NCBI GenBank assembly: GCA_016705235.1
Contig: JADIYP010000005.1
Location: forward strand, 190,067-254,066
DNA: 64,000 bases
Source: Candidatus Leptovillus affinis
GTDB lineage: Bacteria; Chloroflexota; Anaerolineae; Promineifilales; Promineifilaceae
Direction: 5' to 3'
The notes below the pieces were generated by a model. That model saw only the letters and a program-made list of their open reading frames with translations, did no database searches and was not told where the DNA came from. The translations under genes and the position numbers were made by a program. Shown piece after piece: positions 10,601 through 34,410 of this stretch (positions are counted from its first letter, which is position 1; each line of letters begins with the position of its first letter).

Positions 10601-10908
10601 ATTATTTACGTGAGAAGGGTTATCGGTTATTGGTGGCGCGGAACGGCCGTGAAGCCATCGAGCAGGCGGCTATGCTGCCGGATTTGGTTCTGATGGATAT
10701 TCAGATGCCGGAAATGGACGGGTTGCAGGCGATTAAACGGCTGCGAGCAGATGAGACAACGGCCGTTTTACCCATCATCGCCCTGACAGCCCTGGCAATG
10801 CCCGGCGACCGCGAACGCTGCCTGGCCGCCGGAGCCGACGCTTATTTGAGCAAGCCCCTCAGCCTGAAAGCTTTGCTGGCGGTGATTGAGATGTTTCCCA
10901 AAGCGTGA
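7675..10908 (+). CDS. Hybrid sensor histidine kinase (multi-TM N-terminus, two GAF-like regions, HisKA, HATPase_c, C-terminal receiver)
   Basis: H-box SHELRTPLNALLG. ATPase boxes LLSNAVKFT and GTGLGLS. C-terminal REC segment LILLAEDNEI...DLVLMDIQMPEMDG...SKPL. The exact start is uncertain because several in-frame Met codons are available. Confidence 0.9.
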   Translation: MREILPHKPGHSMHFGGPVVNASALLLSALTGIIMTLSSPTKAVTRIRIYGTLFVLMAVARYLLPPDAWQGNLTRHMALEFMAAMLAGFVGMLALVRYFTRRDNVFLFIGVGFVGAGLLDGLHVLAIYPHLADILPWLEFAPRWIWNTSPTFLSILIFGSWLTWRREVETGWYGRMTGRRLFILIFSLTLVNLLLFVLVAQSEAAPTLPLARVELFISTTFYLWALVNYLAKGHWQHDAFEHWLVVALLLSFSGQMFFMFSSVALFDAFFEVALALKLVGYFCVLVGLMGSIVIIFRQAAGSAAQLQQANDLLQQEIAERQRAERAEYEQRRLAEALREVGNALSATLDFDQLLERLLDQIAHVVPYDTANVMLLRGAEVDIVCTRGYGRSQTPLINHFALVEMPSLQQMAQSRQPLVIPDISADPDWVRADASPHVRSWAGIPIAVQQEVVAFLALNYSQPNFYQPAHATRLAAFAGQAAIAIQNARLYKALQQRVAELTTLNQISHAVTSSLDLQTTLTIVTAQATRLLDVDATSVVLLDREQGDLWFAAAFGQAAEFVRGKRLALGQGIVGWVVEHGQPLLITDAKADQRHFPNFDEVSKFTARTLLCAPLQVKGQTIGAIESINKATGPFDEADLRLLTLLAGPAAAAIENARLYEQARREIEERLRAEAALQAERAQLAQHVAERTADLSAANAELARANRLKDEFLASMSHELRTPLNALLGIGEALQEGVYGTLNNNQSRSLRSIEESGRHLLNLINDILDLSKIEAGKLALEPGPVSVREVCQASLRFIRQEAHKKALLVDLSVDPVVTTIWADERRLKQILVNLLSNAVKFTAVGGHIGLEVQGDAAQRAVCFVVWDQGIGIAPEDMQKLFRPFVQLDSRLSREYNGTGLGLSLVYRMAELHGGSVGLTSEVGRGSRFTVRLPWDPADKLGRPVNKTAQSPTAVQATEGKLILLAEDNEIFIETVGDYLREKGYRLLVARNGREAIEQAAMLPDLVLMDIQMPEMDGLQAIKRLRADETTAVLPIIALTALAMPGDRERCLAAGADAYLSKPLSLKALLAVIEMFPKA

Positions 10909-10956
10909 AGCGCATGGCGGACCACAATCGTCTTGCCGACTTTTGGGGTCTGTGTA

Positions 10957-12033
10957 ATGACAATGAACGAGCAACCGGTAATTTTGATTGTAGATGATGA
11001 TTTTACGGCGCGGCAGACGGCGGAAATGCTGCTGCTGCAAGAGGGGTATGCGCTGCATTTTGCGGCCAGCGGGCCAGAGGCGCTGCAACGCCTGCCGGAA
11101 ATAAACCCCGACGTGATTTTGTTGGATGTGATGATGCCAGGCATGGATGGGTTTGTGGTGTGCCGGGCATTGAAAACGGCCGTTGCCACCCAACACATTC
11201 CTGTTGTCCTGGTGACGGCGCTGGACAGCAAAGAAGATGTGGCGCGCGGCCTGGACGCCGGAGCCGACGACTTTATCCACAAGCCCGTGAACGGACTGGA
11301 ACTGCGTGCCCGCGTGCGGTCTATGCTGCGCATTAAGCAGCGCCACGATGAACTGCAAACGATGATGCGCCTGCGTCAGGATTTGTCGGACATGATCATC
11401 CACGATATTCGCAGCCCGCTGACGACCATTACGATGTACTGCGATTTATTGCAGCGTTATACGCCCCAACCCGAGGCGCAAGAGGCGCTGCACACCATCA
11501 CCGGCCAGGTGGTCCGGCTGAATGCGTACCTGACGGACATGCTGATGATGGCCAAGATGGAGCATGGCAAGCTGGTGCTGCTGCAAACGGCCGTTACCCT
11601 GAACGATCTGCTGCAAACGGCCTGCGACGCCTATCAGCCGCTGGCGGCGCAAAGGTCGGTGACGCTGGCTCTGGAAATGCCGTCGGAGCCACTGACCGCC
11701 AGCCTGGACGCAAATTTATGGCAGCGTGTGCTGGATAATTTGTTGTCTAATGCGCTGAAATTTTCGCCGGTAAACGGCCGTGTCACAGTGCAGTTACGGC
11801 CGTTACCCAACGCCCAATTTTGTGTGCAAGTCTGCGACGAAGGACCAGGCATTCTGCCGGAACACCGCGAGACAATTTTCGATAAATTCCAGATTGTGGC
11901 CGCCGGACAGCGCGAAGTGAAGCAGGTTGGGTTAGGGCTGGCTTTTTGTCGTCTGGTGGTAGAGGCGCATAACGGCCGTATCGCCGTCCACGCCAACGAC
12001 CCCCACGGCGCAATCTTCACAGTGGAAGCGTAG
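10957..12033 (+). CDS. Receiver-histidine kinase fusion (REC-HisKA-HATPase_c)
   Basis: REC segment ILIVDDD...DVILLDVMMPGMDG...HKPV, then H-box HDIRSPLTTI and ATPase boxes LLSNALKFSP and GLGLAF. I prefer the ATG at 10957 to the alternative start at 10933 used in the track. Confidence 0.85.
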   Translation: MTMNEQPVILIVDDDFTARQTAEMLLLQEGYALHFAASGPEALQRLPEINPDVILLDVMMPGMDGFVVCRALKTAVATQHIPVVLVTALDSKEDVARGLDAGADDFIHKPVNGLELRARVRSMLRIKQRHDELQTMMRLRQDLSDMIIHDIRSPLTTITMYCDLLQRYTPQPEAQEALHTITGQVVRLNAYLTDMLMMAKMEHGKLVLLQTAVTLNDLLQTACDAYQPLAAQRSVTLALEMPSEPLTASLDANLWQRVLDNLLSNALKFSPVNGRVTVQLRPLPNAQFCVQVCDEGPGILPEHRETIFDKFQIVAAGQREVKQVGLGLAFCRLVVEAHNGRIAVHANDPHGAIFTVEA

Positions 12034-12134: not shown

Positions 12135-12854
12135 ATGGCTCCAAACATATTATTGGTTGACGATGACACCGAATTGGTTCGCAGCTTGCGGTTGGTGCTG
12201 ACGCAAGATGGGTATGAAGTTCTGACGGCGCACAATGGGCTGGAAGGGCTGCAAACCGCCCACCAGATGCAGCCTGATCTGATTGTGCTGGATGTGAACA
12301 TGCCGTGGATGGACGGCCTGGAAGTTTGCCGCCGCCTGCGCCTGGACACCGACTCGGCGCTGCGCTTTGTACCCATCCTCTTTCTGACATCGCAAGACAG
12401 CGTGGATGACCATGTAACCGGCCTGGACGCCGGGGCCGATGATTATCTGGACAAGCCCTTTCAATCGAAAGAGTTAAAAGCGCGGGTGCGCGCGCTGCTG
12501 CGGCGGCGTGAAGCTGCCACAGCGCTGCCGGCTGCCGATACGCCAGAATTGACGGTGGGACCGTTGACGCTGCATTTGCAGGCGTGTTGGGTGCGCCGGG
12601 GCAGCGGCGAGGCGGTGCAGCTTACCCCGGCCGAGTTTGAGCTGTTGTACCACCTGATGACGCACCCGAAACGGCCGTTTTCCAGTGAGAACCTGTTGGA
12701 AGAAGTATGGGCCTACGCGCCTGGCACGGCCGATCCCAGTCTGGTGCGCTGGCACATCAAAAATCTACGCCTCAAGATAGAGCCAAACGCCAGCCAGCCG
12801 TCACTCATTCGCACGGTGTCTCGCCGGGGCTATATGTTGGTCCCGGAAGGATAA
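12135..12854 (+). CDS. OmpR/PhoB-family response regulator (REC + winged-helix DNA-binding domain)
   Basis: REC segment ILLVDDD...DLIVLDVNMPWMDG...DKPF. Winged-helix segment LTPAEFELLYHLM...VRWHIKNLRLKIE...IRTVSRRGY. Confidence 0.9.
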   Translation: MAPNILLVDDDTELVRSLRLVLTQDGYEVLTAHNGLEGLQTAHQMQPDLIVLDVNMPWMDGLEVCRRLRLDTDSALRFVPILFLTSQDSVDDHVTGLDAGADDYLDKPFQSKELKARVRALLRRREAATALPAADTPELTVGPLTLHLQACWVRRGSGEAVQLTPAEFELLYHLMTHPKRPFSSENLLEEVWAYAPGTADPSLVRWHIKNLRLKIEPNASQPSLIRTVSRRGYMLVPEG

Positions 12855-12913: not shown

Positions 12914-13041
12914 GCCCACGCTCCGCAAGATAAGTCTGTTGTACAGTAAGTACATCGAACAAAAACGGTGCAGCGCAAAAATCGAATAAGCAGCGCACCG
13001 AGAAAAAAATCAACATTCATATCTTGCATAAGGAGCAAAAA

Positions 13042-13629
13042 ATGAACAGCAACAATTTTTGGAAGAAGTTGGGTCGGGATGAAAGCGGTATCACCGCTCT
13101 GGAAACAGCCATCATCTTGATCGCCTTTATCGTGGTAGCTTCGGTTTTTGCCTTTACCATCCTGTCAGCCGGTACATTCTCCACAGAACGTGGTAAAGAA
13201 GCCGTCTACTCCGGTTTAGGCGAGGTGCAGTCCTCAATGGAAGTCAAAGGCTCCCTCATCGCCACGGCCGCCGTTAGCGGCACCACCGCTGCAGAAATGG
13301 ACACGTTGGTCTTTACGGTCGGCAACGTTGTTGGCGGTGAACCGCTGGACCTGAATACAACGACTCCGGTGATGGTGGTCAATTACGTAGACTCGGCGCA
13401 GTTCGAGAATGACTTGCCCTGGAGCACGAACTGGATTGTGTCCCACGACGGTGACGAACTGTTGGATAAAGGCGAACTGGTAGAAATTACTCTGGACCTG
13501 AGCAGCCTGACCACTCCTCTGGGCATCAATACGCAGTTCTCGGTAGAAATGAAACCGCCCAAAGGCGCGGCGCTGAGCATCCAACGCACCACCCCGCCCT
13601 ACTTCGACCAGGTGATGGACCTGAAATAA
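13042..13629 (+). CDS. arlB: Archaellin (archaeal-type flagellin, class III signal peptide)
   Basis: N-terminus MNSNNFWKKLGRDESG/ITALETAIILIAFIVVASVFAFTILSAG. It closely resembles crenarchaeal archaellin N-termini of the form ...KGLAGLDTAIILIAFIITASVLAY. AAGGAG lies 6 nt before the ATG at 13042; the track begins at an upstream TTG at 13024. Confidence 0.8.
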   Translation: MNSNNFWKKLGRDESGITALETAIILIAFIVVASVFAFTILSAGTFSTERGKEAVYSGLGEVQSSMEVKGSLIATAAVSGTTAAEMDTLVFTVGNVVGGEPLDLNTTTPVMVVNYVDSAQFENDLPWSTNWIVSHDGDELLDKGELVEITLDLSSLTTPLGINTQFSVEMKPPKGAALSIQRTTPPYFDQVMDLK

Positions 13630-13713: not shown

Positions 13714-14268
13714 ATGGACATCGAACAAAGAGTGAAATCTCTGGAACAAGAAATGAAGATTTTGAAGAATCAGGTTCAAAAAACGTTATTGGACATTCAA
13801 GAACAAATTCTCGTTCATTACCATCCGGCGCTCCGTACAGAAGATGAATCGTACGACGAAATCAGTGCCCCGGCGCGGGGCGCGACCAGACCGGCGTACA
13901 GCAATGGGCAGCCGGCGGCGGATTTCGAGCCGAACCAGCCCACAGGGTTGAAGGTACGTCAGGTTTCTTTGGCCGATTTGCGCGAGACGACACGGCCGTT
14001 ACCCGAAAAACTCCCCGCCGCCGCCACGCCTCCCGCCGCCGCCGACCAGTCTTTTGCCGGTCTGGTAGATTGGGTTGGGGGCAGCGTAGCCAAGATTGGC
14101 GCCGAGCGAACCCGTAAGCTGCTGGACCTGCGCGCATCTTCCGGCGCGGTTCCCCCAGACGTATACGATACGTTGCAGCAGTTGATTGTGTTATGTGACG
14201 AGAATGAAGGGGCAGATGCGGCGGAAACGGCCGTTCTGCTGCAACAACTCGCCCAACTACTGAACTAA
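13714..14268 (+). CDS. Hypothetical coiled-coil protein in the archaellum cluster (possibly ArlC/D/E-like; speculative)
   Basis: N-terminal coiled coil MDIEQRVKSLEQEMKILKNQVQKTLLDIQEQIL, a Pro/Ala-rich linker and a C-terminal globular part. The functional suggestion rests on position only. Confidence 0.4.
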   Translation: MDIEQRVKSLEQEMKILKNQVQKTLLDIQEQILVHYHPALRTEDESYDEISAPARGATRPAYSNGQPAADFEPNQPTGLKVRQVSLADLRETTRPLPEKLPAAATPPAAADQSFAGLVDWVGGSVAKIGAERTRKLLDLRASSGAVPPDVYDTLQQLIVLCDENEGADAAETAVLLQQLAQLLN

Positions 14269-14331: not shown

Positions 14332-14841
14332 ATGGACAAAGCAATCATGACCACAATGCTCATCGTCATCAGTATGGTGATGGGAGTTCTCCTGTTTAAC
14401 GCCGCCTATCCGGCCATCATCGAAAGCAACGACGCCATGACCAGCATGACCAGCCGCGCCGACGAAAAGCTAAAAAGCCAGATCACCATCGTCCATTCCG
14501 TGGGCGAGCTAGACAGCAGCAGTTGGTGGCAAGACACCAACGGCGACGGCGATTTCGACGTATTTGCCTGGGTTAAGAATGTGGGCGAAACGCGCATTGT
14601 GGCTTTGGAACAAACCGATGTGTTTTTTGGTCCTGAAGGCGCATTTAACCGCATTCCGCATCAAAGCGTCGCCAGCGGTTACCCCTATTGGACCTGGCAG
14701 GTGGAAAACGGCGGCCAATGGACGCCAACGGCCACCTTAAAAATTACCATTCATTATGGCGTGCCTTTGGGAAGCGGCCGTTACTTCCTCAAGGTCATCA
14801 CTCCCAACGGCGTAGACGCCGAATACTTCTTCAGCATGTAA
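14332..14841 (+). CDS. ArlF/ArlG-like archaellum protein (single N-terminal TM helix plus beta-rich domain)
   Basis: N-terminus MDKAIMTTMLIVISMVMGVLLFNAAYP. Its size and its position right after the archaellin fit FlaF/FlaG-type proteins. Confidence 0.5.
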   Translation: MDKAIMTTMLIVISMVMGVLLFNAAYPAIIESNDAMTSMTSRADEKLKSQITIVHSVGELDSSSWWQDTNGDGDFDVFAWVKNVGETRIVALEQTDVFFGPEGAFNRIPHQSVASGYPYWTWQVENGGQWTPTATLKITIHYGVPLGSGRYFLKVITPNGVDAEYFFSM

Positions 14842-15396: not shown

Positions 15397-15495
15397 TTGC
15401 CAGGCGCCTGGTTCAGGCGCAAGGCAACCTTTTTTTAGACATCGTAACCGATGCCATTTATTAGCAGTTCTGGCAAGTTTAACCGAGGGAAAAGC

Positions 15496-15903
15496 ATGAT
15501 TCAATTATCACCACCAGCCCGCAAGTCGGACCCGATTGATCTGGCCTATGCCCGCGACATCGTAGATGGCGACCTGGAATTGTTGCAAGAGATCGTGACG
15601 CTCTTTTTGTTCGATTGTTCGTACCAGGTGGCGGCGCTGCAAGAAGCTGTAGCCTCAGGCAGTGGAAACGCTGTAACAGCCAAAGCCCACCGCCTGAAGT
15701 GCAGCCTGGGTAACATCGGCGGTTGGCAGGCGTATCAATTGGTCTGCGAGATGGAACTCATGGGCTTGAGGAATGATCTGAGCGGGGCAGATGAGTGTTT
15801 GTTCCACCTGACAGCCGCGATGGAAGACATTGTGGCTTTCTTTGCGCAGCCGAACTGGGCGGAACAGGCAGAAGATGGGGCGACGTTCGACGAGGCACAA
15901 TGA
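15496..15903 (+). CDS. HPt (histidine phosphotransfer) domain protein
   Basis: AKAHRLKCSLGNIG fits the HPt H-x-x-K-G/S motif within a four-helix-sized protein. The ATG at 15496 follows GAGGGA. The stop overlaps the next start (ATGA at 15900). Confidence 0.65.
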   Translation: MIQLSPPARKSDPIDLAYARDIVDGDLELLQEIVTLFLFDCSYQVAALQEAVASGSGNAVTAKAHRLKCSLGNIGGWQAYQLVCEMELMGLRNDLSGADECLFHLTAAMEDIVAFFAQPNWAEQAEDGATFDEAQ

Positions 15904-16325
15904 ACCATTCGCATCGCATCCTGGCAATAGATGATGATCCGCTGACGCTGCACATTGTAGAGCATGTGCTGCAAAAGCATGGGTATGAGGTATTTACGGC
16001 TGGTAACGGCCACGATGGCCTGGAATTGGCCCGTGTTCTAAAACCCGACCTGGTGATTTTGGACATTATGATGCCGGGGTTGGATGGCTTTCAGGTGTGC
16101 CGCAAGCTGCGCGAAAACCCGGAAACGGCCGTTATCACCGTCCTCATGCTCACAGCCCGTGGCGCCATAGACAAACCGGTCAGCGACCCGGTGGATTTTG
16201 CCCAGCGGGTGCGCGACCAGCTTAACGGCTACCACGTGGGCGCATCCGATTTTCTGACCAAGCCGGTTAAAGCGGCCGTTCTGGTGGAAAGAGTGCGCTC
16301 GTTAATCTGGAGCGGTAGGAATTAA
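15900..16325 (+). CDS. CheY-like single-domain response regulator
   Basis: RILAIDDDPLTL...DLVILDIMMPGLDG...TKPV. Confidence 0.85.
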   Translation: MNHSHRILAIDDDPLTLHIVEHVLQKHGYEVFTAGNGHDGLELARVLKPDLVILDIMMPGLDGFQVCRKLRENPETAVITVLMLTARGAIDKPVSDPVDFAQRVRDQLNGYHVGASDFLTKPVKAAVLVERVRSLIWSGRN

Positions 16326-16326
16326 A

Positions 16327-17385
16327 ATGGCACAGAAGATTTTGGTCATTGAAGATGATGTGCAGATGTTGGCATGGACCCAAGGCCTCCTGGAAGACGA
16401 AGGCTACGATGTGCTGGTGGCTATTGACGATGGGGCAGGATTAAAAACGGCCGTGTCCGAAAAACCCGATCTCATCCTGCTAGACATTTTTTTGCCCGGC
16501 ATGGACGGCGAAGAAGTCGCCCGCTATTTACGCGCCGACCCCGAAACGGCCGAAATCCCCCTCATCATGCTCGCCAACGACAGCCAGCTAGACAGCCTCA
16601 CCATCGGCCACGAATCTCCCGTAGACGATTACCTCATCAAGCCCTTCGATGCCGTTACACTGGTCACTAAAATCCTGCCCTACCTGGGTCGCAAAGGACC
16701 GCAAAAAAGCGTCATTTCCTCCGGCAACGGCGAATTAGACAGCAAAATGGGCGGCGGCATTCCCTTAGGCTCTCTCACCCTTGTCGAAGGCAGTTCTGGG
16801 GCCGGCAAATCCGTCCTTTCGCAGCAAATGATATTTGGCTCCCTAAACGACAGCTTCACCCTATCGCTGTTTACCAGCGAAAACAGCGTCAGAAGCCTGG
16901 TGAAACAAATGCGCAGCCTGGACCTGGATATTCTGGACTATTTGCTCCTGGGCAAAATCCGTGTTTACCCGATGGAACTATCCCGTTTAGGCAACACAGC
17001 CCCCCGACTGCTGCTTCAGGCCATGAGCCAGGAAACCAGCCGCGACATGATCATCGTCGATTCGTTGACGCTGGCTATTGGCCAATCCACCCTCGAAGAA
17101 GTATTGGGGTTTTTTGAGGAATGCAAGCGGCTTTGCGCGCGCGGCAGCAGCATCATCCTCATCTTACATTCCCACGCGCTCAACAGTGAATTGTTGGTGC
17201 GCATCCGCTCATTGTGCGACGCGCATTTGCAGCTTCGCACCGAAGAAGTAGGCAAAAAACTGGTTAAAACGTTGGAAGTAACCAAAGTTCGTGGCGCGGA
17301 CAAAACCACCGGCAATATCGTCAGCTTTGAAGTGGAACCCGGATGGGGTATGCGCGTCATCCCGGTAAGCAAAGTGAAGGGATAG
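16327..17385 (+). CDS. arlH: Receiver domain fused to ArlH/FlaH (KaiC/RecA-like archaellum ATPase)
   Basis: Residues 1 to about 125 form a REC domain: KILVIEDD...DLILLDIFLPGMDG...IKPF. The C-terminal part is ISSGNGELDSKMGGGIPLGSLTLVEGSSGAGKSVLSQQMIFGS...FTSENSVRSLVKQMRSLDLDI, matching the FlaH consensus and including a Walker A motif. Confidence 0.8.
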   Translation: MAQKILVIEDDVQMLAWTQGLLEDEGYDVLVAIDDGAGLKTAVSEKPDLILLDIFLPGMDGEEVARYLRADPETAEIPLIMLANDSQLDSLTIGHESPVDDYLIKPFDAVTLVTKILPYLGRKGPQKSVISSGNGELDSKMGGGIPLGSLTLVEGSSGAGKSVLSQQMIFGSLNDSFTLSLFTSENSVRSLVKQMRSLDLDILDYLLLGKIRVYPMELSRLGNTAPRLLLQAMSQETSRDMIIVDSLTLAIGQSTLEEVLGFFEECKRLCARGSSIILILHSHALNSELLVRIRSLCDAHLQLRTEEVGKKLVKTLEVTKVRGADKTTGNIVSFEVEPGWGMRVIPVSKVKG

Positions 17386-17481: not shown

Positions 17482-19239
17482 ATGTCTCAATCAGTCCTTC
17501 CTTTCCCATTTCAAACAGGTGGCGCGCAGTGCAACCACGGTGTGGGATGCAGCCTGCAAATGGTGCTGCCGCCGCCGCTGCGCGACGCTTGCGAACGGGC
17601 AGATTTCCTGGCGGATTATTTGCACCAGGTTCCGTTGGGCGACATCGGGATTCCCGTGTATTACCCCACGCTTTCACGCAAGCTGCAACTGTTGGAACGA
17701 CGCAACCTCATTTATCCTATTGACGGCGGTTTGTTTGTCCACATTTACCCCGACGCTGTCGCGGCCCGCGACCATTATGTCTCCATAGAACCAACTGTAA
17801 TGGTGAATCTGGATGAGGTGATGCTGAAGATTGACGAGCGTCTGGTGGAATGGGCCGAAGACATTGGGGAGGTAGTAGACGAAGAAGAAAAGAAGCAGAT
17901 GCTGCTAAAGTTACTTGACCAAATTTGCACAACGGAACTGCCACAGGCTAATGGCAGTGGGAACGGGAACGGGAACGGCCGTACCCCATCCGCCAAAGCC
18001 GCCGCCAGAAAAAGCAAAACCGACCCCATTTACGTTACCGCGCAGCAACTGGAAGGCGTGCGTTACCGCGTCCTGCGCGACAAAGTTGGGCTTGGGCCAC
18101 TACAGCCGCTGCTGCTGGACCCCTACATAGAAGACATCAGTTGCAGCGGCGTCGGGGCCATCTTCGTTGAACACAAAATCTTCAAAAGCCTGCAAACCAC
18201 CATCAACTTCGAGACCCTGGACCAACTCGACGATTTCGCCGTCTGGCTGGGCGAATGGATCAAAAGCCCGGTGACTGTGCGCAACCCCATCGTGGATGCC
18301 GTGTTGCCGGATGGGTCACGTATTAACATTGTGTACGGCCGTGAGATCTCCAAACGCGGCAGCAACTTCACCATCCGCAAGTTCGGCGGTTCCACCACCA
18401 GCATCATGGAACTTATCGAATACGGCACGCTGGATTACACCATGGCCGCCTACCTTTCGCTCATCATGGAGGAGGGGATGAACGTCTTTGTTGTCGGGGC
18501 CACAGCCTCCGGCAAAACGACGACGTTGAACGCCATCAACACCTTCATTTTGCCGGAAGCCAAAATCATCACCATCGAAGACACCCCTGAAGTGATGGTT
18601 CCCCACAAAAACTGGATTCGGGAAGTCACCCGCGATATGGGGCGCGAGTCCGCAGGGGGCAGCGTGGGCATGTTCGATCTACTCAGAGCGGCGCTGCGGC
18701 AGCGGCCGGATCGCATCATCATCGGTGAAATTCGTGGCGAAGAAGGACGCATCGCCTTTCAGGCCATGCAAACCGGTCATGGCGTCATGTCTACCTTTCA
18801 CGCCGCCTCAGTGGAAAAACTGATCCAACGTCTCACCGGCGACCCCATCAACGTGCCCAAAACTTATATAGACAACCTCAACGTCGCCGTGGTGCAATCG
18901 GCCGTGCGCCTGGCCGACAAAAAAATGGCCCGCCGCATCCTTAGCATCAATGAAATCATCGGCTATGACCCTTATACAGAAAGTTTCTCCTTTCTGGAAA
19001 CTTTTCGCTGGAATCCGGCCAATGACACATTCGAGTTTCCCGGCTATATGAACAGCTTCTTGCTGGAAGAGCGCATTGCTATGCGGCGCGGCATTCCGCC
19101 CCAAAAGCGCAAAATGATTTATACCGAATTGAAACGCCGGGCAACCGTTTTTCAACGGCTGCATAAAGAAAAAGGAGTGCGTGGTTTTGATGACTTCTTC
19201 CAAATCCTTGCCGAAGCCCATCGCCAAAAGCTCTTATAA
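17482..19239 (+). CDS. arlI: ArlI/FlaI-type secretion-superfamily ATPase (archaellum motor/assembly ATPase)
   Basis: Walker A GATASGKTTTLNAI, Walker B DRIIIGEIRG, a His box TGHGVMSTFHA and an N-terminal FlaI-like region NLIYPIDGGLFVHIY...YVSIEP. Confidence 0.85.
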   Translation: MSQSVLPFPFQTGGAQCNHGVGCSLQMVLPPPLRDACERADFLADYLHQVPLGDIGIPVYYPTLSRKLQLLERRNLIYPIDGGLFVHIYPDAVAARDHYVSIEPTVMVNLDEVMLKIDERLVEWAEDIGEVVDEEEKKQMLLKLLDQICTTELPQANGSGNGNGNGRTPSAKAAARKSKTDPIYVTAQQLEGVRYRVLRDKVGLGPLQPLLLDPYIEDISCSGVGAIFVEHKIFKSLQTTINFETLDQLDDFAVWLGEWIKSPVTVRNPIVDAVLPDGSRINIVYGREISKRGSNFTIRKFGGSTTSIMELIEYGTLDYTMAAYLSLIMEEGMNVFVVGATASGKTTTLNAINTFILPEAKIITIEDTPEVMVPHKNWIREVTRDMGRESAGGSVGMFDLLRAALRQRPDRIIIGEIRGEEGRIAFQAMQTGHGVMSTFHAASVEKLIQRLTGDPINVPKTYIDNLNVAVVQSAVRLADKKMARRILSINEIIGYDPYTESFSFLETFRWNPANDTFEFPGYMNSFLLEERIAMRRGIPPQKRKMIYTELKRRATVFQRLHKEKGVRGFDDFFQILAEAHRQKLL

Positions 19240-20680
19240 ATTTAAGAACATCACGGCTTTTGACCAGTTTTACCAGTTGACCTACATGTCGGCTACGGCC
19301 GCTGCCGGCATCTCGCGCAGCAAAACGTTTGAAATGGCGGCGGAATCCGGTTCGCCGGCGGCCAATTATTTTATCGCCATCAATTTGCTGGTGAATGAAC
19401 TCCGTTTCGACTACCCGGAAGCGTGCCGCACGGTGGCCGATAAAGCGCCCTCGGACGAGATCAAAAGTTTCCTGCTGCGCCTGTCCGACGCGATGCGGTC
19501 TGGCGAGCCGTTGCCCGCTTTTCTGGCCCGCGAAGCGGCGGTGCAGGCGAATGTGTACGATAACGCCTACGAACGCGATCTGGAATCGCTGAAAAAATGG
19601 TCGGATGCGTTTTCTTCGATTGTGGTTTCGGTGGCCCTGATTGTGATCATTAATTTGGTATCGACGATGATTTATTCGATGGGCACGGGCATGATTACCG
19701 GGTTGGTGATAACGGCCGTGATCATGGGTTTCTTTGGCGCCTGGATTCTCTCCCGCGCTGCTCCACAAGAAGAGATGACCATTCCCTCGGCCATAGGGTC
19801 AGACGGCCAGCGGCGTACCCTGCAATTAAGCCGTATTATCATCCCCACGGCCGTTCTCCTCGGCGGTGTTTTGGCATTTCTCGGGTTTAGCCAGGTATGG
19901 GTACTGGTAGCCGTATCGGCCGTGCTGCTGCCTCTGGGCATCGTCAGCTCGCGGGCCGACGCGGAAATCACCAAAAAAGACGCCGAAATCAGTTCGTTTT
20001 TACGCTCGGTAGGCGGCATGGCTACTTCCACCGGCACCACCCTCAAAGAAGCCATCACCAAAATAGACATCAGCTCCTTTCCCCGGCTTCAACCCGATGT
20101 AAAGCGGTTGGATACGCGCCTGCGTGCCCTGGTCAGCCCAACGGTTTGCTGGCAGCGCTTTGGCAACGAGACCGGCAGCCGCCTGATTCGGCAGGCTGTC
20201 GGCATTTTTTACGAAGCGGTACGCCTGGGCGGCGATCCGGAACAAGTGGGATTTCTTTGCTCAATGTTTGCGTCGCGCACCGCGATGCTGCGCGCAAAAA
20301 GGCGCACGGTAGTCAGCACGTTTACCTGGCTAACGCTGGTTATGCATATCGTCGTCGCCGCGCTGATGGTATTTGTACTGCACATCATTCACAACTTCTT
20401 GCTCCTGATGCAATCGGCCATGACGGCGGATCAGGCGGCGTTGGCCTCGGAAAATCTGGCGATGCCGCTGGCTAATTTTAGCCCGCAGCAGATGCAGTTT
20501 CTGGACGCCATTACCATCATGATGGTGGTCTTGCTGGCGGTTATCAGCGCGATGGCCATCGTCGCCAGTGATGGCGGGTATAAATTTAAGCTCACGCTTT
20601 ACCTGGCGGTGCTGCTTTTTATGTCGGGCATTAGCTTCTGGATTGTGCCGCCTATGGTAGCGCAGTTGTTGACAATTTGA
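19181..20680 (+). CDS. arlJ: ArlJ/FlaJ-type polytopic membrane platform protein (T2SSF/TadC-like)
   Basis: About 500 aa with two T2SSF-like repeats and multiple TM helices, immediately after arlI. The start is ambiguous (GTG 19181 or ATG 19190). Confidence 0.75.
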   Translation: MVLMTSSKSLPKPIAKSSYKFKNITAFDQFYQLTYMSATAAAGISRSKTFEMAAESGSPAANYFIAINLLVNELRFDYPEACRTVADKAPSDEIKSFLLRLSDAMRSGEPLPAFLAREAAVQANVYDNAYERDLESLKKWSDAFSSIVVSVALIVIINLVSTMIYSMGTGMITGLVITAVIMGFFGAWILSRAAPQEEMTIPSAIGSDGQRRTLQLSRIIIPTAVLLGGVLAFLGFSQVWVLVAVSAVLLPLGIVSSRADAEITKKDAEISSFLRSVGGMATSTGTTLKEAITKIDISSFPRLQPDVKRLDTRLRALVSPTVCWQRFGNETGSRLIRQAVGIFYEAVRLGGDPEQVGFLCSMFASRTAMLRAKRRTVVSTFTWLTLVMHIVVAALMVFVLHIIHNFLLLMQSAMTADQAALASENLAMPLANFSPQQMQFLDAITIMMVVLLAVISAMAIVASDGGYKFKLTLYLAVLLFMSGISFWIVPPMVAQLLTI

Positions 20681-21063: not shown

Positions 21064-22098
21064 ATGTCTAAATCCACACGGCCGTTTCGCCTTCTTCTTC
21101 CCCTGGTTTTTATCGGTGGGCTGCTGTTCGGCTGGCTGGTCATCGGCTGGTGGTTGTGGCCTATCCAGTGGGCCAACGTGGCCCCGGCGCAGCTATCGTC
21201 AGACCATCAGCGGATTTACGTAGCCATGGCCGCCGAAGCCTATGCCCTGACGGGTGACGTAGCCCAGGCGCAGTCGCGGTTGGCAACCTGGGACAACGCG
21301 ACACTGGCTGCCACCCTGACTTTGCTGATTCAGGAAACGACCGATCCTGTGGTCCGTGAGCGTTACATTGCATTGGGAGAAGCGCTGGCCATGCCGCAGG
21401 TAGACTTGAGTCTGATGGACGTGATTTTAGGGCAGAAAGCGATTCTGGTAACGGCCGTCGCCGCCGTTGGCCTCTTCTTGGCCGCTTTGGGGATGGCCTT
21501 GTTTCCTGTTTTGCAGCAGACCAGAGCGCGCCAACAGGAAGAGCTGCTTCTGTTGAACGGCGCCGAAGCGGGAACAGACATGGATGGAGATGAGCAAACG
21601 GCCGTTTCTTCCAGCAGCGCTGCCCGGCAAAACAACGGCGGAACCGAGACGGCCGCAAACGCTGGCCAGGGCAGCGCCCCTGACTCGGCGGCCAACACTA
21701 CCTCGCAAACAAACGCTGGCGACCAGGCAACCGCCGGTGGCGGCGGGACCGGACAGCCCGGCGCGGCCCAGGCCGCAGGCGGGAAACAGGCGCAGCAAAA
21801 CCCGGCCAACGCCGCCGCGCAGCCACCCGAACAGCAGGCAACGGCCGTGCAGAATCCGGCCAACGCCCCCGCGCCAGCCGCCAATCAGCCGCCGCCCGAA
21901 GAAACGGCCGAAAAACTACTCGCCGAAGCAACCGGCGATATTCAAGCCCTGCTCAACAGCATCTTCGACGAAGACGACAAGCTTGCCCATTACGATACAC
22001 TGCTGCACAACATGGGCGACGTTGATATGGTTCGATTGGCAGACCGCAGCGCCCAAATGCTGCGTCAACTGCGGCAAAAGAACCGGGAGACAGCCTGA
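21064..22098 (+). CDS. Hypothetical membrane protein with a long Ala/Gln/Pro/Asn-rich disordered region
   Basis: Two predicted TM helices (LLLPLVFIGGLLFGWLVIGWWLW and ILVTAVAAVGLFLAALGMALF), a low-complexity middle and a short conserved-looking C-terminus. No family recognised. Confidence 0.5.
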   Translation: MSKSTRPFRLLLPLVFIGGLLFGWLVIGWWLWPIQWANVAPAQLSSDHQRIYVAMAAEAYALTGDVAQAQSRLATWDNATLAATLTLLIQETTDPVVRERYIALGEALAMPQVDLSLMDVILGQKAILVTAVAAVGLFLAALGMALFPVLQQTRARQQEELLLLNGAEAGTDMDGDEQTAVSSSSAARQNNGGTETAANAGQGSAPDSAANTTSQTNAGDQATAGGGGTGQPGAAQAAGGKQAQQNPANAAAQPPEQQATAVQNPANAPAPAANQPPPEETAEKLLAEATGDIQALLNSIFDEDDKLAHYDTLLHNMGDVDMVRLADRSAQMLRQLRQKNRETA

Positions 22099-22099
22099 C

Positions 22100-22711
22100 A
22101 TGGACCTGCTATGGTTGATTTTGGGGTTTTTGTTGGGCTGGTTGTTGAACTGGCTGAGCGACTTTTTACCGTGCCGCCTGGCTAAAACGCCGCGCCCGGC
22201 CAATCTACGGGGACGCGCTGCTGGCTTGCCCTGGATGATAGGGGCGATGACGGCCGTGGCCTGTTATTACTTTGGCTTGCGCGGGCAATGGGTCTCTCTA
22301 GTCTTGTACGCATTTTTCTTGTTGATTGCCCTGATCGACGGCAAACACAGGTTGGTCCTGAACGTGCTGGTGTACCCGGCTATCGCCCTGACGCTGGTTT
22401 ATCATCTGGTCGCCGGGGGGCAGTCCTGGACGGCCGTATGGTTGGGCGGAGGCTTGGCCCTGGCTGCTTTTGTCCTGGCTGCCTGGCTGCGCCCCGGCGA
22501 TTTGGGCGGCGGCGACGTGAAACTGGCGGCGCTGATTGGCCTGATCTTCGGTTTCCCTGGTGTGTTGTGGCCGCTGCTGCTGGGTGTAGGGCTGGGTGGA
22601 TTGGCCGCCGCCTATTTGCTGCTGCGTGGATACGGCCGTCGCTATCACATCCCCTATGCTCCCTTTTTGTCCCTTGGCGTCTTTATCGCTCTTCTTTACA
22701 CCCCTCTCTAA
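22100..22711 (+). CDS. Peptidase A24 family prepilin/preflagellin peptidase
   Basis: MDLLWLILGFLLGWLLNWLSD..., a first Asp box LIALIDGKHRLV and a second Asp box GGGDVKLAALIGLIFG. The ATG at 22100 follows the upstream stop directly. The 5' part of track ORF 21584..22711 is an out-of-frame overlap with the upstream gene. Confidence 0.85.
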   Translation: MDLLWLILGFLLGWLLNWLSDFLPCRLAKTPRPANLRGRAAGLPWMIGAMTAVACYYFGLRGQWVSLVLYAFFLLIALIDGKHRLVLNVLVYPAIALTLVYHLVAGGQSWTAVWLGGGLALAAFVLAAWLRPGDLGGGDVKLAALIGLIFGFPGVLWPLLLGVGLGGLAAAYLLLRGYGRRYHIPYAPFLSLGVFIALLYTPL

Positions 22712-23021: not shown

Positions 23022-23160
23022 CGGGTCATTATGATTTGCGGTTGAATCCCTGGGAGCAGTAGGTGTTGCCAATCGTTGCAAAACGGCCTCCAGGCGAGCG
23101 TAGTTTGTGCGTGTTGTTTGCCAAAAGGCAAGACATAACAACTCAAGTGAAGTAACCATT

Positions 23161-23979
23161 ATGCGCGAATCTTCTTATGATTTAGACACCGTTCTGAGGG
23201 AACAAACGGCCACAAATTCCCGGCGTCCCATCATTTTGTGGTTAGTCGCCTTGGGATTACTGCTGCTGTTTGTGCCCTTGTACCTGGTAGCCACGGCCGT
23301 GCGCGCCGACACCCAACGTCTGGAGAGCGAATTAAGCCAGTTGCAAATGGCGGAGATGGGCGATCCGGGGGGCGATCCTACGATAAACGCCTTGCAAACC
23401 AGAGTAGCCGAAGCACAAACTGAGGCGGATAGTCTGGCCGCCATCCAGTCGAGCACAGGCGCGCAGCATGTGAATTGGCCGGCCGTAGTGGATGCCATCA
23501 AGACCGACGCCAATCAGATCACGTTGTTGGGCGTAGAACAGGCGGATAATCGCCTGACTATTTCAGGTGAAGCGGCTGATGATACGGCCGTTATCGCCTA
23601 TGCCCAGGAACTGGAAGCGTCCGGGCAGTTTGCGCGGATTGTGGTGCAGTCAATTACGCTGCTGCCTACACCGCAACCGGTCATTACGCCGACGTTGTCG
23701 CCCTCGCCTATTGCAACAACTGCGCCCTCACCAACCACGGTCGCAGCCACAGCAACAAGCGCCGGCCCGGTGACAAACCCAACGGCCGTGCCCACCATCA
23801 CCCCCACGCCCAATTTGCGCGACGCTTACGAGGTTGACGACAGCCAGGCTAAACCCATATTTGTCGGCGAAGTGCAGACCCGCAACTTCTACCCCCAGGG
23901 CGATGTGGACAACGCCTGGTTTTTGGCTAAGAACGGCCGTTTCTACACCATTGCCACCACCAACCTTTCCCCGGCGTAG
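23161..23979 (+). CDS. PilN-like membrane protein, 5' portion of a gene apparently interrupted by a -1 frameshift
   Basis: TM helix ILWLVALGLLLLFVPLYLVA, a coiled coil, and a PilN-like core ITLLGVEQADNRLTISGEAADDTAVIAYAQELEASGQFARIVVQSI. A Pro/Thr linker follows, then the start of a beta-domain whose paralogue (24240..24420) continues in the frame of the next ORF. Confidence 0.6.
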   Translation: MRESSYDLDTVLREQTATNSRRPIILWLVALGLLLLFVPLYLVATAVRADTQRLESELSQLQMAEMGDPGGDPTINALQTRVAEAQTEADSLAAIQSSTGAQHVNWPAVVDAIKTDANQITLLGVEQADNRLTISGEAADDTAVIAYAQELEASGQFARIVVQSITLLPTPQPVITPTLSPSPIATTAPSPTTVAATATSAGPVTNPTAVPTITPTPNLRDAYEVDDSQAKPIFVGEVQTRNFYPQGDVDNAWFLAKNGRFYTIATTNLSPA

Positions 23980-23984
23980 ACACC

Positions 23985-25073: not shown

Positions 25074-25095
25074 CCAGGCAGCGAGTACAAAACCT

Positions 25096-28586: not shown

Positions 28587-28610
28587 AGGGAACTCCGAAT
28601 GGTGAATTAC

Positions 28611-28650
28611 TAATCGTCAATCGTTAATTGTCAATCGTCAATTGCTAATG
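28611..28650. promoter_or_regulatory. Tandem TCAATCGT / TCAATTG words in the divergent cas1 / HTH-gene promoter region; candidate operator
   Basis: TAATCGTCAATCGTTAATTGTCAATCGTCAATTGCTAATG, read directly in the sequence. No binding protein has been demonstrated. Confidence 0.25.
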
Positions 28651-28677
28651 GGGGTAGGGTAGCAGACGGCCGTTTGA

Positions 28678-28989
<312 letters not shown>

Positions 28990-28997
28990 TGGTGAAC

Positions 28998-29300: not shown

Positions 29301-29404
29301 CCATTTGGGCATTTTGGGAGAAGCAACAAACTTTCTCCGAAAATGCCCTTTTGTGTTTCCATTTCTGACAATCTGGTCAGGTACACTGTTGTTGGAGGTT
29401 TGCT

Positions 29405-30428: not shown

Positions 30429-30434
30429 TGGCGA

Positions 30435-30794: not shown

Positions 30795-30796
30795 GG

Positions 30797-31030: not shown

Positions 31031-31066
31031 ACGCTTAGTATAGCGGAAACAGGATACAGGTGGAAG

Positions 31067-33931: not shown

Positions 33932-33933
33932 AA

Positions 33934-34368: not shown

Positions 34369-34410
34369 GCTTCTACAACACAGACTTAACGTACAAGAGC
34401 ATTGTATCGC

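What the first reader, a model, noticed from the sequence alone, without database searches (positions are those of the whole stretch)
16327..17385. Receiver domain fused directly to the archaellum ATPase-regulator ArlH
**Seen in the sequence.** The first 125 or so residues are a canonical CheY-like REC domain (DD...D...T/S...K pattern: VIEDD, LLDIFLPGMDG, IKPF). The rest is FlaH/ArlH, with GGGIPLGSLTLVEGSSGAGKSVLSQQM.

**Established knowledge.** ArlH is a KaiC-like protein that binds ArlI and modulates the motor. In archaea, chemotactic input reaches the motor through CheY-CheF-ArlC/D/E, none of which I find here.

**Inference.** Phosphorylation of the fused receiver could gate assembly or rotation directly at ArlH. 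That would be a shortcut replacing the archaeal CheF adaptor route.
Basis: partly seen in the sequence, partly recalled or inferred. Interest (0 to 1): 0.8.

Follow-up and report, generated by a model that had tools for sequence, protein, structure and literature searches.

The report
Receiver-type domain fused to bacterial ArlH
A Chloroflexota bacterium that carries an archaeal-type swimming motor has a two-component receiver-like domain fused to the motor regulator ArlH, next to a phosphorelay, which suggests how signals reach this motor without the archaeal adaptor CheF.

Summary
ORF 16327-17385 (+, 352 aa) is one uninterrupted protein: a receiver (REC) domain (res 1-117), a short linker, and a complete ArlH/FlaH domain (res 129-352). 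It sits between arlF and arlI in a full archaellum operon of a Chloroflexota MAG.

The fusion is not an artefact. It is present in 42 of 80 species-level Chloroflexota archaellum loci. In an ArlH-domain tree these form one clade.

In that clade a phosphorelay module sits in front of arlH. It consists of an HPt protein or a hybrid kinase with an HPt domain, plus a single-domain receiver (REC1). No unfused locus has it.

- The window protein keeps the acidic pair, Asp53 and Lys105, but has Ala83 where Thr/Ser should be.
- None of the 43 fused receivers has all five catalytic residues, and 10 have lost the phospho-acceptor Asp.
- The upstream REC1 is canonical in 29 of 31.

No chemotaxis genes are in the window, so the input is a sensor-kinase phosphorelay rather than chemotaxis. 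A weak ArlD/E-like gene is present.

Best reading: a phosphorelay input module built into ArlH, either phosphorylated itself or serving as a dock for phospho-REC1. I found no paper describing it. It is a new variant of a known kind, of moderate to high interest.

The parts
7675..10908 (+). Hybrid sensor histidine kinase (MASE3, 2x GAF, HisKA, HATPase_c, C-terminal REC)
   Evidence: Pfam. Conserved at the 5' end of the closest fused loci L001, L003 and L004.
10933..12033 (+). REC-HisKA-HATPase_c kinase
   Evidence: Pfam.
12135..12854 (+). OmpR-type response regulator (REC + Trans_reg_C)
   Evidence: Pfam; NCBIfam.
13024..13629 (+). Archaellin ArlB
   Evidence: Pfam Arch_flagellin, E 4.3e-27.
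13714..14268 (+). Divergent ArlD/E-like protein with an N-terminal coiled-coil-like sequence (assignment weak)
   Evidence: The window protein itself has no Pfam hit. Five of 22 orthologues weakly hit PF04659 Arch_fla_DE, best E 0.0023. Its position matches the gene labelled ArlDE in L. aerophila.
14332..14841 (+). ArlG-like protein, assigned by position only
   Evidence: No family hit. Conserved between the ArlDE-like gene and ArlF in fused and unfused loci. The arlG-arlF order in Chloroflexota is described in PMC12488501.
14869..15396 (+). ArlF-like stator protein
   Evidence: Pfam Arch_flagellin 8.5e-07 and FlaF_Ig-like 5e-05. NCBIfam ArlF 2.6e-4, below its cut-off.
15451..15903 (+). Stand-alone HPt phosphotransfer protein (motif HRLKCSLGNIG)
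   Evidence: Pfam Hpt, 26.9 bits against a cut-off of 24.6. Its stop codon overlaps the next gene's start as ATGA.
15900..16325 (+). REC1: single-domain receiver with a complete DD-D-T-K active site
   Evidence: Pfam Response_reg, E 9e-26. Of the 31 aligned upstream sequences, 29 show DD-D-T/S-K; the other two are a 663-aa kinase ORF (L019) and a 92-aa fragment (L028). The complete sites include loci where the fused REC lost its Asp.
16327..16677 (+). REC domain of REC-ArlH (res 1-117): E9, D10, D11, D53 (nt 16483-16485), Ala83 at the Thr/Ser position (nt 16573-16575), Y102, K105 (nt 16639-16641)
   Evidence: Pfam. Residue mapping against PhoB and CheY. AlphaFold pLDDT about 90-96 with a (beta-alpha)5 pattern.
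16678..16710 (+). Short interdomain linker (res 118-128)
   Evidence: Residues 122-126 have pLDDT below 50. The distance from KPF to the ArlH start is fixed at 21-24 residues in 42 of the 43 fused sequences; the exception, L037, contains masked residues.
16711..17385 (+). ArlH/FlaH domain (res 129-352) plus stop codon: Walker A K161/S162, T183/S184/E185 (equivalent to SaArlH T55/T56/E57), Walker B D245/S246
   Evidence: phmmer against PDB 4YDS, E 8e-31, residues 129-349. Foldseek best hit 4YDS, TM 0.87, rmsd 2.2. Functional residues invariant or near-invariant.
17482..19239 (+). ArlI motor ATPase
   Evidence: NCBIfam archaellum FlaI equivalog, 646.9 bits against a cut-off of 550.
19181..20680 (+). 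ArlJ platform protein (the true start may lie downstream of 19181)
   Evidence: NCBIfam ArlJ/FlaJ, E 2.9e-106 but below its cut-off. Pfam T2SSF.
21064..22098 (+). Conserved protein of unknown function after arlJ
   Evidence: No Pfam hit. Orthologues found in most fused and some unfused loci.
21584..22711 (+). PilD-type prepilin peptidase (Peptidase_A24 domain at res 239-340; the real start is probably further downstream)
   Evidence: Pfam.
23107..26103 (+). PilN-like, BACON-like and PilO/TPR-like genes that follow the archaellum genes
   Evidence: Pfam. Conserved order in related loci. PilN and PilO are reported next to the L. aerophila locus.

Best explanation
The ORF encodes the ArlH subunit of a bacterial archaellum. 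The host is a Chloroflexota MAG whose nearest named relatives are Ardenticatenaceae and Promineifilaceae.

A receiver-type domain was fused to ArlH once, in the ancestor of a large clade. All loci in which an HPt-containing protein and a single-domain receiver (REC1) lie in front of arlH belong to this clade.

The ArlH half keeps every residue known to matter for ATP binding and autophosphorylation.

The receiver half of this particular protein keeps the acidic pocket, the phospho-acceptor Asp53 and Lys105, but has Ala in place of the Thr/Ser. By the current definition it is a pseudo-receiver that retains its Asp. It may still be phosphorylatable, probably less efficiently and without the usual Thr-Tyr switch.

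Proposed mechanism:
1. The MASE3/GAF hybrid kinases pass phosphate through HPt to REC1 and possibly to Asp53 of REC-ArlH.
2. The fused receiver, held on a short linker of fixed length, is the motor-side input module.
3. It changes ArlH oligomerisation or ArlI binding. These are the properties that ArlH autophosphorylation controls in archaea.
4. The result is that archaellum assembly or rotation is turned on or off in response to a sensed signal.

Shown here: domain anatomy, conservation, single origin, and co-occurrence with HPt and REC1. Inferred: phosphotransfer, the partner surfaces, and the effect on ArlI.
For: - Domain calls and thresholds are given.
- The ArlH fold matches S. acidocaldarius FlaH (4YDS): E 8e-31 by sequence and TM 0.87 by structure.
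- Walker A Lys, the T/S-S/T-E triad and Walker B Asp are invariant in all 43 fused proteins; the residue after the Walker B Asp is Ser in 42 of 43. These map to SaArlH K33, T55/T56/E57 and D122. In that protein K33, E57 and D122 are required for autophosphorylation, and Walker-motif and E57 mutants are not archaellated (bioRxiv 10.1101/2021.03.19.436134).
- The gene is the only ArlH homologue between arlF and arlI.
- 42 of 80 species-level loci are fused, and all fused ArlH domains form one clade.
- A stand-alone REC lies directly upstream in 31 of 40 fused loci and 0 of 35 unfused loci (Fisher p 2.5e-13).
- HPt lies within 5 kb upstream in 18 of 30 fused and 0 of 27 unfused loci (p 3e-7).
- In relatives the kinase in front of REC1 is REC-HisKA-HATPase-REC-HPt, a classical phosphorelay layout.
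- HPt/REC1 overlap as ATGA. REC1/REC-ArlH are 1 nt apart, with AGGA upstream of the start.
- Linker length is fixed at 21-24 residues in 42 of the 43 fused sequences.
- The most conserved receiver stretch is DD[FY]LIKPF in beta-5, together with the alpha-4 and alpha-5 positions. This is the usual output face.
- CheF is reported absent in Chloroflexota, and the missing link to the motor is stated as an open question (PMC12488501).
Against: - The Thr/Ser that binds the phosphoryl group and drives the conformational switch is Ala here, and Ala in 31 of 43 fused relatives.
- 10 of 43 relatives lack the phospho-acceptor Asp, including loci that have a kinase-HPt and REC1. Phosphorylation of the fused receiver therefore cannot be the universal mechanism in the clade.
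- The receiver half evolves faster than the ArlH half (pairwise identity 0.50 against 0.73).
- The co-occurrence statistics are not corrected for shared ancestry. Because the fused clade has a single origin, they amount to roughly one evolutionary event.
- The interdomain arrangement is not resolved by the model (pTM 0.60).
- No biochemical data exist for any bacterial ArlH.
Confidence: 0.5

Rival explanations
1. The fused receiver is a phosphorylation-independent pseudo-receiver that acts as a docking adaptor. The canonical REC1 is the real phospho-acceptor. REC1~P binds the ArlH-borne receiver, for example as a REC-REC heterodimer through alpha4-beta5-alpha5. In this way it does the job that CheF and ArlCDE do in archaea.
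For: - REC1 has the full DD-D-T/S-K site in 29 of the 31 aligned upstream sequences, including all checked loci where the fused receiver lost its Asp.
- 0 of 43 fused receivers are canonical, and the T position is Ala in 31 of 43.
- The best-conserved part of the fused receiver is the beta5/alpha5 face rather than the active site.
- REC1 and REC-ArlH are adjacent in 31 of 40 fused loci.
- Pseudo-receivers working through protein-protein contacts are documented, for example FrzS in type IV pilus control (bioRxiv 10.1101/2025.06.23.661182).
Against: - Asp53 is still kept in 33 of 43 fused receivers and Lys105 in 33 of 43. The window protein has four of the five catalytic residues, which is more than expected for a purely structural domain.
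- 9 of 40 fused loci with enough upstream sequence lack an adjacent REC1.
- No interaction has been tested.
Confidence: 0.3
2. A canonical CheY-like receiver on ArlH is phosphorylated by a chemotaxis-type pathway and directly gates or switches rotation, as a shortcut that replaces CheY-CheF-ArlCDE.
For: The fusion, the neighbouring kinases and the HPt are real. No CheF was found among the window's large ORFs, and it is reported absent from the phylum.
Against: - The receiver is not canonical: Ala83 replaces Thr/Ser.
- No CheA, CheW, MCP, CheB or CheR was found among the window's large ORFs.
- The kinases are MASE3/GAF hybrid kinases.
- A separate CheY-like REC1 and an ArlD/E-like gene are present.
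- The phospho-acceptor is dispensable in a quarter of the clade.
Confidence: 0.1
3. The protein is a signalling KaiC-like response regulator that merely lies in the operon and is not the motor's ArlH. This would resemble the REC-ArlH-like paralogues found elsewhere in Chloroflexota.
For: A large set of REC-ArlH-like proteins with canonical receivers exists. In 6 of 6 contexts checked they lie outside archaellum loci, next to kinases, receivers or HPt genes.
Against: - The window protein is the only ArlH homologue between arlF and arlI.
- Its ArlH domain is 57-66% identical to the unfused ArlH of sister archaellum loci and groups with them rather than with the paralogues.
- It passes the FlaH subfamily cut-off.
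Confidence: 0.05
4. The fusion is a sequencing or assembly frameshift that joins two genes.
For: None found.
Against: The same fused ORF occurs in 42 independent species-level genomes and more than 100 protein clusters from different sources, with a linker of fixed length.
Confidence: 0.01

Closest known systems
Archaeal ArlH/FlaH (S. acidocaldarius Saci FlaH, PDB 4YDS; M. jannaschii FlaH, PDB 4WIA; P. furiosus ArlH)
   Same: Single RecA/KaiC-like domain. Walker A Lys, Walker B Asp-Ser, and the Thr/Ser pair with catalytic Glu are all conserved. The gene sits directly before arlI-arlJ. The structural match is TM 0.87.
   Different: Archaeal ArlH proteins are about 230-245 aa with no N-terminal domain. 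The unfused representatives nearest 4YDS in the tree include named archaeal proteins. Here a 117-residue receiver is fused in front, and the host is a bacterium.
Chloroflexota archaellum locus of Litorilinea aerophila (Nat Microbiol 2025, PMC12488501)
   Same: Same gene set in the published locus: arlB, ArlDE, ArlG, ArlF, a single-domain 'CheY', ArlH, ArlI, ArlJ, and PilN/PilO-like genes nearby. CheF is absent.
   Different: The paper and its supplement do not mention a receiver on ArlH or an HPt gene. The words receiver, fused and response regulator do not occur in the main text, and receiver and response regulator do not occur in the supplements. I could not retrieve the L. aerophila ArlH sequence to see whether it is fused.
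KaiC-REC fusions of Methanosarcinaceae, and KaiC-like ATPases as archaeal signalling hubs (Galperin et al. 2018, PMC5847659, citing Makarova et al. 2017)
   Same: A receiver domain covalently linked to a KaiC-family ATPase, placing the ATPase under two-component control.
   Different: The fusion there is written KaiC-REC, whereas here the REC is N-terminal. It is restricted to six archaeal genera and is not described as ArlH or as part of an archaellum locus.
Archaeal CheY-CheF-ArlCDE route
   Same: A receiver-domain protein delivers a phosphorylation signal to the cytoplasmic part of the archaellum motor. An ArlD/E-like gene and a CheY-like REC1 are present here.
   Different: No CheF, and no CheA, CheW or MCP among the window's large ORFs. 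The receiver is part of ArlH itself. The kinases are sensor hybrid kinases with an HPt relay.
TadZ/CpaE of Tad pili and KaiA of the cyanobacterial clock (recalled from memory, not tested here)
   Same: An atypical or pseudo-receiver domain attached to, or acting on, a P-loop ATPase of a type IV filament machine (TadZ) or on KaiC (KaiA).
   Different: The ATPase family differs (MinD/ParA in TadZ). KaiA acts in trans. Neither involves ArlH.
REC-ArlH-like paralogues of Chloroflexota, Dehalococcoidia and SAR202 (for example P0244, P0301, P0132)
   Same: Same REC-then-ArlH-like order. The best family match is FlaH. Database names include 'response regulator' and 'archaellum biogenesis ATPase FlaH/CheY-like chemotaxis protein'.
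   Different: Mostly canonical DD-D-T-K receivers, longer linkers, and not in archaellum loci in 6 of 6 contexts. They form a separate part of the ArlH tree.

Membership tests
ArlH/FlaH (archaellum KaiC-like protein) | Single RecA/KaiC-like ATPase fold | tested here: met
   Pfam KaiC ATPase at residues 133-346. Foldseek best hit 4YDS, TM 0.87, rmsd 2.2 A.
ArlH/FlaH (archaellum KaiC-like protein) | Curated family score thresholds | tested here: inconclusive
   Passes the FlaH subfamily model PRK06067 (262 against 194 bits). Falls just below the ArlH equivalog model NF052589 (201.5 against 215).
ArlH/FlaH (archaellum KaiC-like protein) | Walker A Lys, RecA-type Walker B (Asp followed by Ser/Thr), conserved Thr/Ser pair and catalytic Glu | tested here: met
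   K161/S162, D245/S246 and T183/S184/E185 align with SaArlH K33, D122 and T55/T56/E57. The Lys, the triad and the Asp are invariant in 43 fused proteins.
ArlH/FlaH (archaellum KaiC-like protein) | Encoded in an archaellum locus directly upstream of arlI-arlJ | tested here: met
   The order is arlB ... arlF, HPt, REC1, REC-ArlH, ArlI, ArlJ.
ArlH/FlaH (archaellum KaiC-like protein) | Binds ATP, autophosphorylates, and binds ArlI in a nucleotide-dependent way | not testable with these tools
   Requires biochemistry.
Two-component receiver (REC, PF00072), true receiver | (beta-alpha)5 fold and family score | tested here: met
   68.5 bits against a cut-off of 30.2. The model shows five strands alternating with helices at pLDDT above 90.
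Two-component receiver (REC, PF00072), true receiver | Phospho-acceptor Asp at the end of beta-3 | tested here: met
   D53 aligns with PhoB D53 and CheY D57. In the fused clade it is Asp in 33 of 43.
Two-component receiver (REC, PF00072), true receiver | Acidic pair after beta-1 (metal binding) | tested here: met
   The window has E9 and D10, plus D11. In relatives position 10 is acidic in only 2 of 43, although Asp11 is kept in 103 of 115, so a shifted register is possible.
Two-component receiver (REC, PF00072), true receiver | Thr/Ser at the end of beta-4 | tested here: not met
   Ala83 here. In the clade: Ala 31, Val 3, Thr 3, Met 2, Ile 2, Leu 1, Ser 1 of 43. By the definition in bioRxiv 10.1101/2025.06.23.661182 this makes it a pseudo-receiver that retains its Asp.
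Two-component receiver (REC, PF00072), true receiver | Lys at the end of beta-5 | tested here: met
   K105 in the KPF motif. Lys in 33 of 43.
Two-component receiver (REC, PF00072), true receiver | Is phosphorylated on the Asp by a cognate kinase or HPt | not testable with these tools
   Requires phosphotransfer assays.
CheY (chemotaxis response regulator) | Embedded in, or served by, a chemosensory cluster (CheA, CheW, MCP) | tested here: not met
   No che genes among the large ORFs of the 64-kb window. The rest of the genome was not seen.
Archaeal CheF/ArlCDE switch route | Presence of CheF and ArlC/D/E | tested here: inconclusive
   No CheF-like hit among the scanned ORFs, and CheF is reported absent in the phylum. 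A weak ArlD/E-like gene lies at 13714-14268.

The most novel reading that the evidence does not exclude
The receiver-type domain on ArlH is the bacterial archaellum's own signal socket. It would be a pseudo-receiver built into the motor's KaiC-like regulator that takes phosphate from HPt or captures the phosphorylated single-domain receiver encoded just upstream. This would couple a His-Asp phosphorelay directly to ArlH-ArlI engagement. It would also be the missing link that Chloroflexota evolved in place of the archaeal CheF adaptor after acquiring the archaellum by horizontal transfer.
Probability: 0.35. Interest if true: 0.8.

Novelty: new variant of a known kind. Interest (0 to 1): 0.62.

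Why it matters
The archaellum was shown only in 2025 to work in bacteria. The authors stated that CheF is missing in Chloroflexota and that another component must carry signals to the motor.

The fusion described here, together with its obligatory neighbours HPt and REC1, offers a concrete candidate for that component. The hypothesis can be tested with a few purified proteins.

The finding also bears on ArlH itself, whose role is the least understood among the archaellum motor proteins. It shows ArlH being used as a regulatory entry point.

Finally, the clade provides a natural series running from Asp-retaining to Asp-less pseudo-receivers, all attached to the same output domain.

Tried and rejected
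- **tblastn against plasmids.** It returned only generic receiver hits and was uninformative.
- **Promoter and terminator scan of 12-23.5 kb.** Promoter-like sites were at the level of the shuffles (7 against 6.8). Terminator-like sites were only about two standard deviations above (21 against 13.8, sd 3.3) and were scattered on both strands. No transcript boundaries were drawn from this.
- **Common origin of the two fused receiver groups.** I compared the archaellum-locus fused receivers with the canonical receivers of the out-of-locus paralogues. Mean distances (0.79) were no smaller than to unrelated receivers (0.73-0.76), so the result is inconclusive. The two fusions may be independent.
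- **Asp53 loss and absence of HPt or REC1.** There is no such correlation. Asp-less members often have both.
- **Mol Microbiol ArlH paper.** It could not be fetched by PubMed id, so the bioRxiv version was used.
- **L. aerophila ArlH.** I could not obtain the sequence.
- **Interdomain geometry.** The structure tool returns no coordinates or PAE, so I could not examine whether the receiver covers the hexamer or ArlI interface.
- **Frameshift and non-motor paralogue readings.** Both were considered and rejected, as described under the rival explanations.
Full report
**1. What is at the coordinates**

ORF 16327..17385 (+) starts with ATG and encodes 352 residues without interruption.
- Pfam places a Response_reg domain at residues 5-116 (E 7e-19) and a KaiC-type ATPase at 133-346 (E 3.4e-16).
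- NCBIfam's best match is the FlaH subfamily model PRK06067, at 262 bits against a cut-off of 194. The stricter ArlH equivalog model scores 201.5 against 215, just below threshold.
- The best solved-structure relative by sequence is S. acidocaldarius FlaH (4YDS), E 8e-31. Its residues 2-225 align to residues 129-349 here.
- An AlphaFold2 model built on 35 relatives has mean pLDDT 81.5. The receiver scores 90-96, and only residues 122-126 between the domains fall below 50.
- Foldseek's best PDB hit is again 4YDS (TM 0.87, rmsd 2.2 A), followed by KaiC and by M. jannaschii FlaH.

**2. The surroundings**

The gene lies in a complete archaellum operon on the + strand, in this order:

| Coordinates | Gene |
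|---|---|
| 7675-10908 | hybrid kinase (MASE3-GAF-HisKA-HATPase-REC) |
| 10933-12033 | REC-kinase |
| 12135-12854 | OmpR-type regulator |
| 13024-13629 | archaellin |
| 13714-14268, 14332-14841 | two small genes without family hits |
| 14869-15396 | ArlF-like |
| 15451-15903 | HPt |
| 15900-16325 | single-domain receiver, REC1 |
| 16327-17385 | REC-ArlH |
| 17482-19239 | ArlI (647 bits against a cut-off of 550) |
| 19181-20680 | ArlJ |
| 21064-22098 | conserved unknown |
| 21584-22711 | PilD-type peptidase |
| 23107-26103 | PilN-like and PilO/TPR-like genes |

HPt and REC1 overlap as ATGA. The REC1 stop codon is followed after one base by the REC-ArlH ATG, with AGGA about 8 nt upstream. These three genes therefore appear to be translationally coupled.

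No CheA, CheW, MCP or CheF-like gene appears among the window's large ORFs. The rest of the window holds glycoside hydrolases, a type I CRISPR-Cas system, MalT-like regulators and metabolic genes.

**3. Whose genome**

Identical proteins are named 'response regulator [Chloroflexota bacterium]'. The nearest named relatives are Ardenticatenaceae (88%), Candidatus Trichofilum aggregatum (78%) and Promineifilaceae (70%). This is a bacterial archaellum of the kind described in SAR202 and in Litorilinea aerophila (PMC12488501).

That paper's L. aerophila locus contains ArlDE, ArlG, ArlF, a 'CheY', ArlH, ArlI, ArlJ, PilN and a PilO-like gene. This is the same set as in the window.

The two unassigned small genes are therefore probably ArlD/E-like and ArlG-like. 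For the first, 5 of 22 orthologues weakly hit Pfam Arch_fla_DE (best E 0.0023).

**4. How common the fusion is, and whether it is one event**

Searching with the ArlH domain alone gave 2513 hits at E <= 1e-10. Of the best 120, 107 are 350-359 aa long, and all but a few shorter entries carry PF00072.

A scan of one genome per species returned 80 Chloroflexota loci. In 42 the ArlH in the archaellum locus is fused to a receiver, and in 38 it is not.

In a neighbour-joining tree of the ArlH domain, all 43 fused sequences (window included) form one clade. The only unfused members of that clade are second ArlH copies that lie directly after the fused gene in L022 and L024. The fusion in archaellum loci thus arose once and has been kept down to about 54% identity.

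The linker from KPF to the ArlH start is 21-24 residues in 42 of the 43 fused sequences. The one exception, L037, contains masked residues.

**5. What came with it**

Fused loci differ from unfused ones in a second respect:

| Feature | Fused loci | Unfused loci | Fisher p |
|---|---|---|---|
| Single-domain receiver directly upstream of arlH | 31 of 40 | 0 of 35 | 2.5e-13 |
| HPt domain within 5 kb upstream | 18 of 30 | 0 of 27 | 3e-7 |

These tests are not corrected for shared ancestry. Because the fused clade has a single origin, they describe essentially one acquisition that was then retained.

In many relatives the HPt is the C-terminal domain of a REC-HisKA-HATPase-REC-HPt kinase placed just before REC1. 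This is a classical His-Asp-His-Asp relay layout.

Unfused loci instead often carry an FHA-GAF-kinase between arlJ and pilD.

**6. Is the receiver canonical?**

It is not fully canonical. Aligned with PhoB and CheY, the window protein has E9/D10 (plus D11), D53, Y102 and K105. It has Ala83 at the Thr/Ser position, at the end of strand beta-4.

Across the 43 fused receivers of archaellum loci:
- The T position is Ala 31, Val 3, Thr 3, Met 2, Ile 2, Leu 1, Ser 1.
- The phospho-acceptor is Asp in 33, Gly 6, Ala 2, Glu 1, Asn 1.
- The second acidic position is acidic in only 2, although the next residue is Asp in most.
- Lys is kept in 33.
- None has all five residues.

The definition used by Bourret and colleagues calls any receiver lacking one of the five residues a pseudo-receiver. 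They note that pseudo-receivers retaining the Asp may work as less efficient receivers (bioRxiv 10.1101/2025.06.23.661182). By that definition this is an Asp-retaining pseudo-receiver.

The upstream REC1 is different. It shows DD-D-T/S-K in 29 of the 31 aligned upstream sequences, including every checked locus where the fused receiver lost its Asp. The two others are a kinase ORF and a short fragment.

The receiver half also evolves faster than the ArlH half (mean pairwise identity 0.50 against 0.73). Its best-conserved stretch is DD[FY]LIKPF in beta-5, together with alpha-4 and alpha-5 positions. This is the usual output or dimerisation face.

**7. Is the ArlH half functional?**

All residues tied to function in archaeal ArlH are present:
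- Walker A K161/S162.
- T183/S184/E185, which align with SaArlH T55/T56/E57.
- Walker B D245/S246.

The Lys, the triad and the Walker B Asp are invariant in all 43 fused proteins.

In archaea, Walker-motif mutations and mutation of E57 abolish or reduce autophosphorylation and archaellation. ArlH phosphorylation also lowers hexamer formation and ArlI affinity (bioRxiv 10.1101/2021.03.19.436134).

**8. A second family with the same architecture**

A search of 1.84 billion cluster representatives found 51 ArlH-like representatives with N-terminal extensions of 90 residues or more. Fifty of them contain a receiver.

Most of the more distant ones have fully canonical DD-D-T-K receivers. Their best family match is still FlaH. 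Where named, they come from Chloroflexota, Dehalococcoidia or SAR202. JGI names some of them 'archaellum biogenesis ATPase FlaH/CheY-like chemotaxis protein'.

All six genomic contexts I fetched lack arlI, arlJ and archaellin genes. They show kinases, receivers or an HPt next to the gene instead. These are paralogous response regulators with an ArlH-like output. They are not evidence about the motor gene.

Whether their fusion shares an origin with the one studied here could not be decided.

Among unfused representatives near the archaeal 4YDS sequence, the named ones include Pyrodictiaceae and Thermoprotei archaea. None of that group carries a receiver. I saw no archaeal REC-ArlH.

**9. Mechanism**

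The best-supported reading is that the fused receiver-type domain is the motor-side input of a phosphorelay: sensor hybrid kinases, then HPt, then REC1 and/or Asp53 of REC-ArlH. The output would be a change in ArlH oligomerisation or ArlI engagement, and hence control of assembly or rotation.

Two versions compete.
- In the window protein, direct phosphorylation of Asp53 remains plausible, because four of the five residues are kept.
- Across the clade, the erosion of the active site next to an always-intact REC1 argues that the fused domain can work as a dock for REC1~P or for HPt.

I give the general model 0.5 and the pure docking version 0.3.

The evidence against it is the absence of che genes, the Ala at the Thr/Ser position, and the presence of REC1 and an ArlD/E-like gene.

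**10. Known or new**

The components are known:
- The bacterial archaellum (PMC12488501).
- ArlH as a KaiC-like regulator of ArlI.
- Receiver-KaiC fusions in six Methanosarcinaceae genera, written there as KaiC-REC and not described as ArlH (PMC5847659).

Public annotation pipelines already label these proteins with both domains. I found no paper that describes a receiver on ArlH. The 2025 paper and its supplement do not mention one. A 2026 preprint on chemosensory systems and archaella discusses only the stand-alone regulator. Searches for ArlH or FlaH with 'receiver domain' found nothing relevant.

I rate the finding as a new variant of a known kind. It speaks directly to the open question of how signals reach the bacterial archaellum without CheF.

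Noticed in passing
window 27543-42900: A type I CRISPR-Cas locus: cas1 (27543-28586, minus strand), a WYL regulator (29631-30428), cas3 (31067-33544), cas7/DevR (36752-37729) and cas6 (39331-40359). It is followed by an array of at least 35 copies of a 37-nt repeat, GTCGCCCCACCAGAGAATCGCCAGAGATTACTGAAAC, from about 40520.
   Followed up: partly
L022:9974-11794 and the equivalent in L024: In two genomes the REC-ArlH gene (Asp53 replaced by Gly) is followed directly by a second, unfused ArlH gene. Both copies sit inside the fused clade of the tree. This looks like a local duplication in which one copy lost the receiver.
   Followed up: partly
L044:14405-16099 and many other unfused loci (L043-L080): Archaellum loci with unfused ArlH often carry an FHA-GAF-HisKA-HATPase kinase between arlJ and pilD. 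This may be a different regulatory solution. From memory, FHA proteins regulate the archaellum in Sulfolobus.
   Followed up: no
L081-L086 (contexts of P0301, P0132, P0324, P0316, P0334, P0352): A large family of REC-ArlH-like proteins with canonical receivers lies outside archaellum loci, next to kinases, receivers and HPt genes. In L086 it is 5 kb from a kaiB-kaiC pair. Their function is unknown.
   Followed up: partly
window 15900-16325: The stand-alone receiver REC1 has an insertion of about 25 residues between the Thr of beta-4 and the Lys of beta-5 (AIDKPVSDPVDFAQRVRDQLNGYHVG). Pfam matches it in two stretches.
   Followed up: no
window 21064-22098: A 344-aa protein with no family hit follows arlJ. 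It has orthologues in most fused and some unfused Chloroflexota archaellum loci, so it is a candidate lineage-specific archaellum component.
   Followed up: no
protein P0204: An unfused ArlH-like protein is labelled 'Candidatus Acidoferrales bacterium'. This hints at ArlH homologues in a bacterial group other than Chloroflexota. Its context was not examined.
   Followed up: no
window 43379-46117 and 48786-51488: Two paralogous MalT-like STAND regulators (AAA_16, MalT TPR region, LuxR-type HTH). Each is followed about 1.6 kb or 0.6 kb downstream by a zinc-type alcohol dehydrogenase gene.
   Followed up: no
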